Assembly (NCBI RefSeq): GCF_902652985.1
Contig: NC_047025.1
Span: 38,874,001 to 38,938,000, forward strand
Origin: Pecten maximus
Lineage: Eukaryota
Direction: 5' to 3'
Length of the DNA: 64,000 nucleotides
A program made the position numbers. Every line of letters starts with the position of its first letter. Position 1 is the first letter of the stretch. This document shows, piece after piece, positions 15,001-64,000 of this stretch.

Positions 15001-18000
15001 AATGATGTAAAATATGAAATAAACAAATCATTTACATTTTTTACCTTGGAGTGGTAAAGTTGGCCAAAACAGGCATATGATTAATTACAGGAAAAATTTC
15101 CAGTTAAATTTAACATTTGAAATTATCAAAATGAACCTCCTGGTGACCTTTAAACATAAATTCTCATTTGATGGACAATGACTTACTTTTGTTCCTGAAC
15201 CCATGTGTTTACGTTCTGTACGACGAGTTCACTCTCTCGGTGAAGACGATCCCCGTTGGAACGTGACTCCTCCAGTGCCACTCTAAGCCCTTGTATCTCC
15301 TCATTAGCACTATGGTAATTGTGTCGCAGTAATTCTACCTCATTTCGGAGCTTGTCAGACTATGAAAGATAATTTACAAATGTAAACATGTTGTAAGGAA
15401 TGTAAGGAAATTGCACATTCATTAACATTTACAAGATGCAAATATTTCTGCTCTCTCTTAATTTCCTTTCAAAACATGGAACAAACTGACAAATTTCTTA
15501 CAACCATTGTTTGAATTTTTGAAGGCTCACTAAAACATCAAGGTCATTTTAGGCTAAACAAAACAAATTAAACATTGTCCAGAAGAATATGGCATACGTT
15601 GCTTCACCATGAAAACAACCCTAAGGACCCTTACTTCATCAATCTTGGCCTTGTATTTCTCCTGGATGGCGCTGAGCTCAACCTTGAGTACGACTGACTC
15701 CTCCTCCAGAGCACCGAGGTCCTGAAGAGACTGTCGGTTTTTGTCTTGCGTGTTCATCAACTCTTGCTGCAAGTCCTGGTACCGCAACTCAAAGTTCTCC
15801 AACTGAGAAAAAAATAAATTTGTATTTTATGAACAAATATCATCATCTCAGAAATTAAACTTCTAACAACACAATATAAAATGTCGCTATCTCAGAAATT
15901 AACCTTCAAATAGCACAATATAAAATGTTTCTTTGTTCAGTAAATAACTCATTGCCCTCTTGTTTGATATGTAATAGCCCTACATGGGTCAAACCTTCCT
16001 ACCTCCTCCTCTGAAGCTCGGTTTAGCTCCTGCATTTTCCTGAGTTCCTGTGTAAGCTCCCTCATCTTCTCCTCATAAAGGGCTATCTCGTCCGACATCC
16101 CCTGGTTCTGTTGTTGTAACTTTGCCAAGTCTGTCTTTAGAGCTGCCACCTGGCGCGACTTTTCTCCTAATTGGTCCATGGACTCCTTGTGGTGACCTTG
16201 AACTGTGGTTAGCTGCACCTTTAGGTCATGAACTTTCTGTTCATTCTCCATCAGCTGTCAAATAAAACAGTACATAATACAAACTTTAATTAACAACTAC
16301 AGAATGTCAATTTTCGACAAGATCAGGATAGTAAAATATGATGATGTTATGTGTGTTAAGAATAGTGAAACCGATACATACAGAGGCATGTGTCTTTCTG
16401 TACTGGTCCTGGATGCGGTCTAAATCATTCTGTAGCTGTCCAAGTGTCTCCTCATACCTCGAAACCTGTAACAAGTCATTTATAGTTAATATGTATCCAC
16501 AACCATACAAATTGAAGTTTCAGAACAATCATCACATGTTTCACAATGTCAATAATATTCTTGGAAACCTTCCAAAGGACATTGTTTATTTTCTAATTTG
16601 TTAACTAACATCCTGTGAGGGGTTACTGACCTCCTGTGAGGTGTTACTGACCTCCTGTGAGGTGTTACTGACCTCCTGTGAGGTGTTACTGACCTCCTGT
16701 GAGATGTTACTGACCTCCTGTGAGGTGTTACTGACCTCCTGTGAGGTATTACTAACATCCTGTGAGATATTACTGACCTCTTGTGAGGTGTTACTGACCT
16801 CCTGTGAGATATTACTGACCTCCTGTGAGATATTACTAACCTCCTGTGAGGTGTTACTGACCTCCTGTGAGGTGTTACTGACCTCCTGTGAGTGAGATAT
16901 TACTGACCTCCTGTGAGATATTACTGACCCTCTGTGAGATATTACTGACCTCCTGTGAGATATTACTGACCTCCTGTGAGATATTATTGACCTTCTGTGA
17001 GATATTATTAACATCCTGTGAGATATTACTGACCTCCTGTGAGATATTACTGACCTCCTGTGAGATATTATTGACCTTCTGTGAGATATTATTAACCTCC
17101 TGTGAGATATTACTAACCTCCTGTGAGTGGTGCACACTCTGTTTTTGGGCTGACTGCAGGTTAAGTTTGGCGACCCTGAGTTGACCTTCCCGTTCCACCA
17201 ACTCCTCTTTGAGCGCCATCTGTCGCTGGTGCATAGACTCAATGTCAGCACGCAGGTTAGAGATAAGCTCATCCTTGTCCTTGACCTATGGTTTTAATAG
17301 ATAATACAATAAGTACAAGGTGACATTTACCTTGACCTCTGACCTTTTATACTGAGGAAAACATCAACACACTTGGAACATGATCTCCTTTAATCAAAAT
17401 TACTATTTCCAGAAAAAGTACAAGAAAGTAAAAGTAAGGATATTGACTAAAATTTCTGGAATACGAATCATTTATACCGTGTTTGTGAGGTCGTTGATGT
17501 GTCTTTGGGCAGAATCAAAGTCATCCTGGAGGTCAGCATTATGTTTGCGTGTTGCTTGTAGATTTTTGGCGGTGTCCTGGTGTCTTTCCCGTTCCCCACG
17601 TATCTCCTGCTGTAGCTGGGTGAGGATCTGGTCCTGCTGCTCTACCTGTCAAATAGAATAATTAGACAGCTTTAGATAAGACACTACAGTACAGGTACGG
17701 AATGTTTTCACAGAACAAACCTTAATGCTGTAAATATTCAATAAATCCTAAGGAGTAACTCTCTATGCATAGTGATTATTCCATCACTACTTCATACCTG
17801 GTCACTAAGCATCTTCTCCTGCTCACGAGCGCCCTCTAACTCCACCTCGTATTTGTGAGCTTGCTGTTTGTATGCGAGGCCCTCCTGTACGGCCGAGTGA
17901 TGGTCTTCCTTCGAGTTGACTAGGTCCTTTCTGAGCTTGTCAATCATCGCTTTCTGTTCCTCAATCTCCTCCTCGTAACTTGTGTTACGTTCTCGTAGTG

Positions 18001-63000: not shown

Positions 63001-64000
63001 GTCGCTAGTTACCTCCCCTACAGTAGAGGACGACAATAAAGGATAGAAAGACAGGATGTAGTCACCAGTTACCTCCCCTACAGTAGAGGAAGACAATAAA
63101 GGATGGAAGGACAGGATATAGTCGCTAGTTACCTCCCCTACAGTAGAGGACAACAATAAAGGATGGAAGGACAGGATATAGTCGCTAGTTACCTCCCCTA
63201 CAGAATAGCGCTGTTTCTCCTGTAACATTTTAATAGTCTGTTGGTGCGCTGTGTTCTCCGACTCACGGCGGCCGATTTGTGTGTGCAGGTCGCTAAGCTG
63301 TGATTGGAGGGTCGAAATCTTCCGTTCTCTGTTGGATACCTGGCAGGCGGGCAGACAGAAGTGAAACTAGTGTGACACCAACAAAAACACACAAGACAAA
63401 ACACATGCAAACATCATTCATGAAAAAAGAATTCACCGAAGTCAACGGTAGGCAACAAAAATTAGAATTATAATTTCCAATGCCAAAATTTCCAAAACAA
63501 ACATGAAAAATTTAGAAATAGTTCCTTTTGCAAAATTAGAACTTTTTCAACAAAAAAAAAAGGCTATGTTGAATCTACAATGGATTAAACGAACCAGATA
63601 AGGTGATGATTGATTACGGTATATTCTTGCATACATACATCTAAGGGGATTATCTGTTACTACACATTCTTACATACATCTAACGGGATTATCTGTTACT
63701 ACACATTCGTACATACATCTAACGGGATTATCTGTTACTACACATTCTTACATACATCTAACGGGATAATCTGTTACTACACATTCGTACATACATCTAA
63801 CGGGATTATCTGTTACTACACATTCGTACATACATCTAACGGGATTATCTGTTACTACACATTCGTACATACATCTAACGGGATTATCTGTTACTACACA
63901 TTCGTACATACATCTAACGGGATTATCTGTTACTACACATTCGTACATACATCTAACGGGATAATCTGTTACTACACATTCTTACATACATCTAACGGGA

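What the first reader, a model, noticed from the sequence alone, without database searches (positions are those of the whole stretch)
15635..63339. Exon lengths are quantised in coiled-coil heptads and all 37 rod exons are phase 0
Seen: exons w1-w37 are all phase 0/0. 28 of 37 are exact multiples of 21 nt (thirteen of 84 nt, six of 168, plus 63, 105, 147, 252 and 336). Seven others are exactly 7n+4 codons (25, 53, 53, 53, 60, 81, 81), and the remaining two adjacent exons (68+86) sum to 22 heptads. Established: 7n+4 corresponds to a coiled-coil stutter or hendecad. The pattern ends at w38, where the PMFBP1-like region has phase-2 introns. Inference: the rod was built from a 28-aa exon module, and most exons could be skipped without breaking frame or register, giving a length-tunable molecular ruler.
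Basis: partly seen in the sequence, partly recalled or inferred. Interest (0 to 1): 0.7.

Follow-up and report, generated by a model that had tools for sequence, protein, structure and literature searches.

The report
Coiled-coil gene with heptad-sized exons
A mollusc gene for a very long rod-shaped protein is cut into 38 consecutive exons that each begin at the same position of the protein's seven-residue repeat, which records how the rod was built from a 28-residue unit; the rod's length is the same in fish, so it looks fixed rather than adjustable.

Summary
Of these, 29 are multiples of 21 nt, seven are 7n+4 codons, and the adjacent pair of 68+86 codons adds up to 22 heptads. The binomial P is 1.3e-17. 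Exon starts fall on heptad position 'a', and a 28-residue module is in register with the exon borders (0 of 5000 rotations match).

The window is molluscan, not human. Single-exon comparisons with gastropod, clam, eel and shad proteins place the exons end to end. Exons 14-34 (1038 aa) match an eel protein with no indel.

Relatives show fused modules, consistent with intron loss. At the 68|86 site they show other intron positions that again give whole heptads (77, 98 and 154 aa).

So the 28-aa exon module is supported, but the "length-tunable ruler" is not. The core length is fixed across phyla. Only N-terminal exons 5, 9 and the pair 7/8 differ between species, as whole exons.

In passing: seven intronic minisatellites start exactly at 5' splice sites and copy the donor in each unit.

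The parts
63193..63339 (-). rod exon 1, 147 nt (49 aa = 21+28), phase 0/0; first exon inside the window, the gene continues upstream off-window
   Evidence: abuts exon 2 on Arion 302-350, Biomphalaria 402-450, Candidula 301-349
60057..60140 (-). rod exon 2, 84 nt (28 aa)
56424..56507 (-). rod exon 3, 84 nt
55863..56021 (-). rod exon 4, 159 nt (53 aa = 25+28; 7n+4)
   Evidence: 39-41 of 53 residues identical to the three gastropod proteins at the abutting slot
55380..55442 (-). rod exon 5, 63 nt (21 aa); no counterpart in the Arion and Candidula proteins
   Evidence: 21-aa slot with weak similarity in Biomphalaria
53985..54068 (-). rod exon 6, 84 nt
49611..49694 (-). rod exon 7, 84 nt; homologous to exon 8 and to the same single module of orthologues
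47617..47700 (-). rod exon 8, 84 nt; weak donor GTTAGA; the better match to the single orthologous module
45018..45092 (-). rod exon 9, 75 nt (25 aa; 7n+4); absent from the Arion and Candidula proteins
   Evidence: 16 of 25 residues identical to Biomphalaria 637-661
42520..42666 (-). rod exon 10, 147 nt
41564..41647 (-). rod exon 11, 84 nt
41301..41459 (-). rod exon 12, 159 nt (25+28; 7n+4)
40642..40788 (-). rod exon 13, 147 nt
39232..39390 (-). rod exon 14, 159 nt (28+25; 7n+4); the most conserved rod exon, first exon of the core that is collinear with fish
38515..38598 (-). rod exon 15, 84 nt
37852..37914 (-). rod exon 16, 63 nt
37366..37533 (-). rod exon 17, 168 nt (2 modules)
36924..37007 (-). 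rod exon 18, 84 nt
36122..36301 (-). rod exon 19, 180 nt (60 aa = 28+32; 7n+4); 67 aa in Arion and Biomphalaria, 60 in eel
35696..35779 (-). rod exon 20, 84 nt
35292..35459 (-). rod exon 21, 168 nt
34931..35014 (-). rod exon 22, 84 nt
34601..34705 (-). rod exon 23, 105 nt (35 aa)
34154..34216 (-). rod exon 24, 63 nt
   Evidence: Arion 1095-1115; slot length fits eel
31349..31591 (-). rod exon 25, 243 nt (81 aa = 25+28+28; 7n+4)
30289..30492 (-). rod exon 26, 204 nt (68 aa); its donor is the only rod intron not placed before an 'a' residue
29518..29775 (-). rod exon 27, 258 nt (86 aa); register runs on from exon 26 (68+86 = 22 heptads)
26693..26776 (-). rod exon 28, 84 nt
26303..26470 (-). rod exon 29, 168 nt
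   Evidence: slot length fits eel and shad
25872..26114 (-). rod exon 30, 243 nt (28+25+28; 7n+4)
21008..21091 (-). rod exon 31, 84 nt
   Evidence: (Mya 140-167)
20657..20740 (-). rod exon 32, 84 nt
17798..18133 (-). rod exon 33, 336 nt (4 modules)
17478..17645 (-). rod exon 34, 168 nt; last exon of the core collinear with eel
17118..17285 (-). rod exon 35, 168 nt
16382..16465 (-). rod exon 36, 84 nt
16003..16254 (-). rod exon 37, 252 nt (3 modules)
15635..15802 (-). rod exon 38, 168 nt; last heptad-quantised exon
15187..15359 (-). tail exon T1, 173 nt, phase 0 in, phase 2 out
13427..13459 (-). tail micro-exon T2, 33 nt, phase 2/2; the matching 11 aa are missing in Saccostrea isoform X2
12081..12122 (-). 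tail exon T3, 42 nt, phase 2/2
11847..11940 (-). tail exon T4, 94 nt, phase 2 in, 0 out
11483..11553 (-). tail exon T5, 71 nt, phase 0 in, 2 out
10189..10291 (-). tail exon T6, 103 nt, phase 2 in, 0 out
9870..10058 (-). tail exon T7, 189 nt, phase 0/0
1584..1673 (-). tail exon T8, 90 nt, phase 0/0; holds the motif shared with the eel tail

Best explanation
The window holds most of a molluscan gene for a very long alpha-helical coiled-coil protein. It belongs to the family that sources label 'PMFBP-like' or 'PMFBP1-like'.

The rod is a chain of 28-residue (four-heptad) modules. Hydrophobic core positions sit at module positions 1, 8, 11, 15 and 18, and the fourth heptad is polar.

The exon pattern is a historical record, not a device:
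- One module was originally one 84-nt exon flanked by phase-0 introns placed just before an 'a' residue, and the rod grew by duplication of such exons (inferred).
- Later intron losses fused neighbours into 168-, 252- and 336-nt exons. Relatives show different fusion states.
- Losses of a heptad or of 3 residues gave 21-aa and 25-aa modules. The 25-aa modules are the 7n+4 'stutters'.
- One intron moved, giving 68|86.

Most of this was in place before molluscs and vertebrates split. Module lengths and stutter positions of exons 14-34 are the same in eel (shown).

Such exact length conservation points to a rod of fixed length and register, a spacer or an in-register assembling fibre. [quoted passage not shown] This functional step is inferred and not tested here.
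For: Exon arithmetic:
- 38 phase-0 GT-AG exons, 29 of them multiples of 21 nt.

Module and register:
- Exon start = heptad 'a' in 30 of 38 clearly, plus 5 ties.
- The 28-aa register holds beyond heptads: hydrophobic counts at the four 'a' positions are 26, 27, 31 and 9 of 33. 0 of 5000 rotations reach the observed order.
- A heptad signal is dominant in natural orthologues, with a hydrophobic period of 3.51 at 53-68 times noise in eel, Arion and Biomphalaria.

Collinearity with orthologues:
- Exons 33-38 map to Candidula 1-352 and exons 31-38 to Mya 140-549 end to end.
- Exons 1-24 abut on Arion, Biomphalaria and Candidula.
- For exons 14-34 against eel XP_064189240.1, 15 of 21 exons rank first of about 1800 offsets at the offset predicted by zero indels. 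The other 6 rank 7th-95th.

Intron loss or turnover in relatives:
- Exons 14+15 lie in one ORF in 4 fragments, one of which also includes exon 16.
- Exons 26+27 lie in one ORF in 5 fragments. One fragment has the intron at 56|98. Six distant fragments have a 77-aa exon.

Proto-splice sites:
- Of 94 internal phase-0 AG|G sites, only 10 precede 'a', yet 36 of 37 introns do.
Against: - No transcript data for this species. Exons 5, 7/8 and 29 have weak or only slot-length support.
- The duplication history itself is inferred. Apart from exons 7/8, modules are too diverged to show pairwise descent.
- The orthologue proteins give no global 28-residue Fourier peak, so the 28-aa period is visible only in exon-anchored alignment.
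- With the strict AG|GT motif, 8 of 14 internal sites precede 'a'. Biased intron insertion therefore cannot be fully excluded.
- Exon structures of the fish genes were not available, so the age of the introns, as opposed to the modules, is unknown.
- Exons 1-13 and 35-38 are not collinear with eel, so the rod is not fixed over its whole length.
- The link to mammalian PMFBP1 rests on names given by sources. No mammalian PMFBP1 came back from my three exon searches.
Confidence: 0.72

Rival explanations
1. One reading: the uniform phase-0, heptad-sized exons are kept because cells skip or swap them to make rods of different lengths, a length-tunable ruler.
For: - Any of the 29 heptad-multiple exons can be dropped without changing frame or register.
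- Mollusc proteins differ from the window model by whole exons: Arion and Candidula lack exons 5 (21 aa) and 9 (25 aa), while Biomphalaria has both slots.
- All three gastropods have one module where the window has the homologous pair 7/8.
- Oyster RefSeq isoforms differ by the 11-aa T2 micro-exon and by a 15-aa segment in the tail.
- Shad has a 64-aa cassette isoform.
Against: - Core exons 14-34 have the same summed length in eel, with no indel in 1038 aa.
- Eel isoforms differ only by an N-terminal 30 aa and by 4 aa.
- The shad cassette (64 aa) is not a whole number of heptads.
- Differences between species may be exon gain or loss, or gene-model gaps, rather than splicing.
- No transcripts of this species were seen.
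Confidence: 0.15
2. The introns were not inherited with duplicated exons. They were inserted independently at proto-splice sites (..AG|GT..) that recur because modules end in Glu/Gln/Lys codons and start with Val.
For: - Donor-side exon ends are mostly GAG/CAG/AAG, and many exons start with GTN.
- 8 of 14 internal AG|GT sites lie before an 'a' residue.
- Intron positions do differ between relatives at the 26/27 site.
Against: - With the usual AG|G definition, 84 of 94 internal phase-0 sites lie at other heptad positions, yet 36 of 37 introns precede 'a'.
- AG|GT also occurs in phases 1 and 2 inside exons (6 of 30 sites), but no rod intron has those phases.
- The 28-aa register with exon borders is what duplication predicts.
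Confidence: 0.1
3. The pattern is an artefact of choosing, among many AG and GT dinucleotides, those that give multiples of 21.
Against: - Exon-by-exon alignments to six named orthologous proteins abut without gap or overlap.
- No junction allows a shifted GT-AG pair (0 of 37).
- In unnamed genomic fragments of relatives, homology stops at the same borders.
Confidence: 0.02

Closest known systems
Fibrillar collagen genes (54-bp exon unit; recalled from general knowledge, no paper read here)
   Same: Exons are integer multiples or simple variants of one structural repeat unit. Introns all fall between repeat units. Larger exons are explained as fused units. The layout is read as a trace of exon duplication.
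   Different: The unit here is four coiled-coil heptads (84 nt), not six Gly-X-Y triplets. Introns are phase 0 before a heptad 'a' residue. Variants differ by 21 nt or by 9 nt (stutter) rather than 9-nt triplet steps.
Titin PEVK exons (motifs of 26-28 residues; PMC7691732, abstract and two passages read) and nebulin module exons (recalled)
   Same: The module is about 28 residues, peptides are taken from single exons, and many similar exons lie in a row. [quoted passage not shown]
   Different: PEVK is disordered and elastic, and its isoform lengths differ greatly. Here the modules form a heptad coiled coil, and the core length is the same in mollusc and eel.
Mammalian PMFBP1, sperm head-tail coupling apparatus protein (PMC11643634, passages read)
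   Same: Sources name relatives 'PMFBP-like protein' (Mya arenaria) and 'polyamine-modulated factor 1-binding protein 1-like isoform X3' (eel). Both are long coiled-coil proteins.
   Different: No mammalian PMFBP1 was returned by my searches, so homology to it was not tested here. Other isoforms of the same eel gene are named EEA1-like or trichohyalin-like. Function and location in molluscs are unknown.
Coiled-coil molecular ruler of the axoneme (CCDC39/CCDC40; Oda et al. 2014, seen only as a reference-list entry in PMC10266980)
   Same: A long coiled coil whose length would set a spacing. The strict length conservation of exons 14-34 is what a ruler predicts.
   Different: No evidence here that any spacing depends on this protein. 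There is no sequence relation, and the Atlas look-alikes were generic centrosomal coiled coils.
Myosin II / paramyosin rods (28-residue repeat; search listings only)
   Same: A long heptad rod with a 28-residue super-period and conserved length. Several orthologues are auto-named 'myosin-like'.
   Different: No myosin family passes the Pfam cut-off. There is no 28-residue charge periodicity in four orthologues. As I recall, myosin exon borders do not follow the 28-residue repeat.
Tandem duplicated, mutually exclusive exons (PMC9741552, abstract seen in listing)
   Same: Exons 7 and 8 are adjacent, both 84 nt and phase 0/0, and homologous to each other. Both map to one module of the orthologues.
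   Different: There is no transcript evidence that only one is used. Both could be constitutive after a lineage-specific duplication.

Membership tests
Genes whose exons equal structural repeat units (collagen-type exon duplication) | Exon lengths are integer multiples of one repeat unit | tested here: met
   29 of 38 are multiples of 21 nt, and 22 of 38 are multiples of 84 nt
Genes whose exons equal structural repeat units (collagen-type exon duplication) | All introns of the repeat region are in the same phase | tested here: met
   37 of 37 rod introns plus the intron to T1 are phase 0. There are 0 of 37 alternative shifted GT-AG pairs
Genes whose exons equal structural repeat units (collagen-type exon duplication) | Repeat units are homologous and in register with exon borders | tested here: met
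   33 modules; 0 of 5000 rotations by multiples of 7 reach the observed column order
Genes whose exons equal structural repeat units (collagen-type exon duplication) | Multi-unit exons arise by intron loss (different fusion states in relatives) | tested here: met
   Exons 14+15(+16) and 26+27 are contiguous in ORF fragments of relatives. These are unnamed genomic fragments, and their borders are inferred from where homology ends.
Heptad coiled coil | 3.5-residue hydrophobic periodicity with a/d core positions | tested here: met
   Peak at 3.51 residues, 53-68 times noise in eel, Arion and Biomphalaria, split peak in shad. a/d occupancy in window modules. No dedicated coiled-coil predictor or structure was run.
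Heptad coiled coil | 7n+4 segments behave as stutters | tested here: inconclusive
   The local register shifts inside or at the end of each of the seven exons, and four of them have the same length in eel. The definition comes from PMC4786415. No structure is available.
PMFBP1 family | A named vertebrate PMFBP1 comes back as a significant hit | tested here: inconclusive
   Only '-like' names were seen (Mya, eel isoform X3). Three exon searches returned no mammalian PMFBP1. The searches are word-limited and capped at 2000 aa.
PMFBP1 family | [quoted passage not shown] | not testable with these tools
   Known for mouse and human only (PMC11643634)
Myosin II heavy chain (names given to some orthologues) | Myosin head or tail Pfam family; 28-residue charge repeat | tested here: not met
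   No myosin family among the hits, and all hits are below cut-off. No 28-residue charge peak.
Molecular ruler | Length conserved among distant species | tested here: met
   Met for exons 14-34 only: no indel against eel, offsets of -3 and -7 residues in shad and +7 in gastropods. Not met for exons 1-13 and 35-38.
Molecular ruler | A cellular spacing follows the protein's length | not testable with these tools
   No data
Mutually exclusive exon pair (exons 7/8) | Adjacent, same length and phase, homologous | tested here: met
   Both are 84 nt and phase 0/0, with 10 of 28 residues identical (my count on the print). Both score best at the same slot of three gastropod proteins.
Mutually exclusive exon pair (exons 7/8) | Transcripts carry exactly one of the two | not testable with these tools
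   No transcripts of this species

The most novel reading that the evidence does not exclude
The rod is a conserved ruler whose N-terminal part is adjusted in whole-heptad steps in two ways. The first is cassette or mutually exclusive exons. The second is the choice among tandem copies of the 5' splice site. The 21-nt minisatellite at exon 35 is in frame, stop-free for about 11 units, and encodes one a/d-correct heptad (V-S-N-I-S-Q-E) per unit, each unit ending in a donor-like site. More broadly, the donor-anchored minisatellites may reflect a splicing-linked mutational or regulatory process that has not been described.
Probability: 0.1. Interest if true: 0.8.

Novelty: new member of a known kind. 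Interest (0 to 1): 0.5.

Why it matters
This is an unusually clean example of a protein's structural period written into its gene. There are 38 consecutive phase-0 exons cut at one heptad position, with fused and shifted states visible in relatives.

It gives a dated picture of how a rod of about 250 heptads was assembled. It also shows that the module lengths and stutter positions of a 1038-residue core have not changed since molluscs and fishes diverged. That makes the idea of a fixed-length rod, for instance in the sperm neck, directly testable by description (isoform sequencing, localisation, rod-length measurement).

My searches of the held library found no paper describing heptad-quantised exons in a coiled-coil gene. 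One search found none on a molluscan PMFBP1-like gene.

Tried and rejected
- Human or primate origin: rejected. Rfam gave 0 matches, so no 7SL-derived repeats, and the best protein matches are molluscan.
- Pfam: only sub-threshold generic coiled-coil families came back. The precomputed label PF24161.2 carried by orthologues was not returned by my own scans, so I cannot name it.
- P0003 (4853 aa) and P0020 (TipJ phage tail protein) are unrelated repetitive proteins, with no meaningful tblastn match.
- Atlas look-alikes were generic centrosomal coiled coils with low shared-feature counts, leads only.
- Global Fourier search for a 28-residue period in orthologues: none.
- Eel residues 1509-1561 could not be aligned to exons 35-38.
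- Upstream parts of the gastropod proteins have no match in the window.
- Exon 7 and 8 flanks do not align, so the duplication is old.
- Paper searches on splice-donor minisatellites found nothing matching. One search was badly framed: none of its ten listed papers held 'PMFBP1'.
- I did not run a structure prediction or a dedicated coiled-coil predictor.
- Supplementary files of papers were not consulted.
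Full report
SCOPE AND RULES. The window has no N, and I do not take it for human. Rfam at gathering thresholds gave 0 matches, so no 7SL-derived repeats. The protein matches are molluscan. I did not build, save or search a joined coding sequence or protein. Register continuity and collinearity were worked out from exon lengths and per-exon alignments only. What a joined model would add, such as a whole-protein profile search or a whole-rod coiled-coil prediction, therefore stays open.

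THE OBSERVATION. The gene is on the minus strand. A scan for open segments bounded by AG and GT in phase 0 and rich in coiled-coil residues, refined by eye and by homology, gives 38 exons between 63339 and 15635.

Lengths:
- 84 nt x14, 168 x6, 63 x3, 147 x3, and one each of 105, 252 and 336. That is 29 of 38 multiples of 21 nt.
- 75, 159 x3, 180 and 243 x2. These are seven exons of 7n+4 codons.
- 204 + 258 nt, an adjacent pair of 68 + 86 codons = 22 heptads.

The probability of at least 29 of 38 multiples of seven codons, given multiples of three, is 1.3e-17. The 38 exons sum to 1729 codons = 247 heptads exactly, because seven stutters of +4 add up to 28. I regard that as a one-in-seven coincidence.

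All 37 introns are GT-AG. At 0 of 37 junctions can both sites be moved together by 1-8 nt and remain GT-AG.

My scan looked only for phase-0 exons, so the independent check is homology (next section). As an internal control, the C-terminal tail of the same gene has exons of 173, 33, 42, 94, 71, 103, 189 and 90 nt.

ARE THE EXONS REAL?
- Candidula and Mya. Exon 33 found a Candidula unifasciata protein (P0001) and the 'PMFBP-like protein' of Mya arenaria (P0002). Aligned one by one, exons 33-38 occupy Candidula residues up to 72, then 73-128, 129-184, 185-212, 213-296 and 297-352. Exons 31-38 occupy Mya 140-549 in the same gap-free way.
- Gastropods. Exon 14 found Arion vulgaris A0A0B7AUF6 (P0043; transcript-derived as far as I recall), Biomphalaria pfeifferi KAK0062771.1 (P0045), a second Candidula fragment (P0049) and shad XP_041923827.1 (P0053). 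Exons 1-4, 6, 8 and 10-24 abut residue to residue on these gastropod proteins.
- Eel. Exon 27 found, among 23 hits, eel XP_064189240.1 (P0022). Taking exon 14 as the anchor and assuming no indel at all, 15 of the 21 exons 14-34 score best of about 1800 possible offsets exactly where predicted. The other six rank 7th to 95th.
- Shad. Shad follows the same order, with two small offsets of -3 and -7 residues.
- Unnamed fragments. In unnamed genomic ORF fragments of relatives, homology to exon 14 covers residues 1-53 and is flanked by unrelated, intron-like translation.
- Weakest exons. Exon 5 has no counterpart in Arion or Candidula and only a 21-aa slot in Biomphalaria. The pair 7/8 maps to one slot. 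Exons 15, 16, 18, 24, 29 and 31 are supported in eel mainly by slot length.

REGISTER AND MODULE. With a simple a/d hydrophobicity score on the first 28 residues, the first residue of the exon is 'a' in 30 exons clearly. In 5 more it is 'a' only as a tie that my script resolved to 'a' (exons 4, 7, 24, 29, 33). It is not 'a' in 3 exons (12, 25, 27). Exon 27 starts at 'f', which is exactly where exon 26 leaves off, so the register runs through that junction.

Cutting the 22 exons that are multiples of 84 nt into 33 modules gives a position-specific profile:
- Hydrophobic residues at 1, 8, 11, 15 and 18: 26, 27, 30, 31 and 19 of 33.
- A polar last heptad: position 22 is mostly N/H/Y and position 25 mostly S/T/C.
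- Glu at positions 5, 14 and 28.

Rotating modules at random by 7, 14 or 21 residues never reaches the observed column order (0 of 5000). The 28-residue unit, in register with exon borders, is therefore real and is more than heptad periodicity.

The 7n+4 exons read as 25+28, 28+25, 28+32, 25+28+28 and 28+25+28 (my parsing of the sequences). The odd piece is thus a module shortened by three residues or lengthened by four. An insertion of four residues is the published definition of a stutter (PMC4786415).

The natural orthologues show a dominant hydrophobic period of 3.51 residues. They show no global 28-residue peak in hydrophobicity or in charge. The period is dephased by 21- and 25-residue modules, and this rod is unlike myosin in charge pattern.

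HISTORY. Relatives carry other fusion states.
- Exons 14+15: four fragments have them in one open frame, one of these with exon 16 as well, followed by a donor-like GT.
- Exons 26+27: five fragments have them in one frame (154 aa in P0007).
- The 68|86 site: one fragment (P0011) has an intron-like break after residue 56 of exon 26, giving 98 aa. Six more distant fragments all have a 77-aa exon that starts nine residues inside the window's exon 27. Thus 154 aa is found unsplit, or split 56|98, 77|77 or 68|86. Only the window's own split (shared with P0005 and P0006) is not in whole heptads.
- These borders are inferred from where homology ends in unnamed contigs, not from transcripts.
- Proto-splice sites alone do not explain the placement. 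Of 94 internal phase-0 AG|G sites, 10 precede an 'a' residue. With the stricter AG|GT it is 8 of 14.

I therefore favour duplication of an 84-nt exon with its phase-0 introns, followed by intron loss, small in-register deletions and one intron shift. Independent insertion remains a minor rival.

FIXED OR TUNABLE?
- The core (exons 14-34, 1038 aa) has the same length in mollusc and eel, including four of the seven stutter exons.
- Gastropods have one extra heptad within the exon 19 slot (67 aa against 60).
- Eel RefSeq isoforms differ by an N-terminal 30 aa and by 4 aa.
- Shad isoforms differ by single residues, one 64-aa cassette and an alternative end.
- Outside the core the picture is looser. 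Exons 1-13 are not collinear with eel. Eel has 53 residues where the window, Mya and Candidula have exons 35-38 (224 aa).
- Among molluscs the differences are whole exons: 5, 9 and one of 7/8.
- Oyster isoforms lack exactly the 11 aa of micro-exon T2, or a 15-aa segment.

The arithmetic that would allow skipping is correct, but the evidence favours a rod whose core length is under strong constraint. Cassette use is possible only at the N-terminal end and in the tail.

WHAT IT IS.
- It is a long coiled-coil protein with a conserved tail. T1 is 75-93% identical to molluscan sequences, and the T8 motif is shared with eel.
- No Pfam family passes its cut-off.
- Source names vary: PMFBP-like, PMFBP1-like, EEA1-like, trichohyalin-like, myosin-like, golgin A5-like.
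- Mammalian PMFBP1 is a head-tail coupling apparatus protein linked to SUN5 through CENTLEIN (PMC11643634). Whether this gene is its orthologue was not tested, because no mammalian PMFBP1 was returned.
- The gene continues upstream of the window. Orthologues have 300-401 residues before the exon 1 match, and these find nothing in the window.

SEEN IN PASSING. Tandem arrays make up 33.6% of the window. Seven of 25 arrays overlap the last 7-20 nt of an exon, so each unit repeats the exon end plus the donor. Twelve of 25 begin within 35 nt of a donor. Random placement gives means of 0.46 and 1.10, and 0 of 20,000 placements reach either observed count. Paper searches found no description of this.

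VERDICT.
- Observation: confirmed.
- Interpretation: partly supported. The module idea holds; the tunable-ruler idea has no support.
- Novelty: a new member of the known kind 'exon equals structural repeat'.
- Interest: 0.5.

Noticed in passing
61540-63203, 41748-42529, 39721-40649, 35228-35311, 26906-29528, 16604-17127, 10486-11488 (minus-strand gene): Seven intronic minisatellites (units of 60, 33, 44, 33, 24, 21 and 28 nt; up to 109 copies) start exactly at a 5' splice site. Each unit is the donor plus the start of the intron plus a copy of the last 7-20 nt of the exon. Twelve of 25 arrays lie within 35 nt of a donor. Random placement never reaches this (0 of 20,000). No description was found in two paper searches.
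   Followed up: partly
16604-17127, next to exon 17118-17285: The 21-nt array is in frame with exon 35 and stop-free for about 11 units (ORF 16875-17234). It encodes V-S-N-I-S-Q-E per unit, a heptad with hydrophobic a and d. Many units begin with a donor-like GT. If later donors were used, each would add one heptad. There is no evidence that they are.
   Followed up: partly
49611-49694 and 47617-47700: Exons 7 and 8 are both 84 nt and phase 0/0, with 10 of 28 residues identical. Both match the same single module of three gastropod proteins. Their flanks do not align.
   Followed up: partly
whole window; 3599-9546 in particular: Tandem arrays cover 33.6% of the 64 kb. The largest is a 13-nt unit repeated about 454 times (about 6 kb) in the intron between tail exons T7 and T8.
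   Followed up: no
13427-13459 (T2): A 33-nt, phase-2/2 micro-exon. The corresponding 11 residues are present in Saccostrea cucullata isoform X1 and absent in X2. X3 lacks another 15 residues between the T7 and T8 equivalents. I did not look for a matching 45-nt exon in the window.
   Followed up: partly
protein P0031 (unnamed contig, relative of exon 14): In a related species the 3' part of the exon 14 homologue, together with its donor and about 14 codons of intron, occurs twice in tandem in one ORF. This is the same kind of junction-spanning duplication as in the window's arrays.
   Followed up: no
39232-39390 (exon 14): The second half of exon 14 (the 25-aa stutter module) is the most conserved stretch of the rod: 23 of 53 residues identical to eel, 26 to shad, and 85% identity in several unnamed relatives. 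This suggests a binding site rather than plain rod.
   Followed up: no
17285-15635 (exons 35-38): These four exons (224 aa) are present in Mya and Candidula, but eel has only 53 unalignable residues between the exon 34 and T1 equivalents.
   Followed up: partly
25494-25856 (+) and 35758-36111 (+): Two plus-strand ORFs of 120 and 117 aa lie outside the tandem arrays. The second overlaps exon 20 antisense. I did not examine them. They are probably chance ORFs.
   Followed up: no
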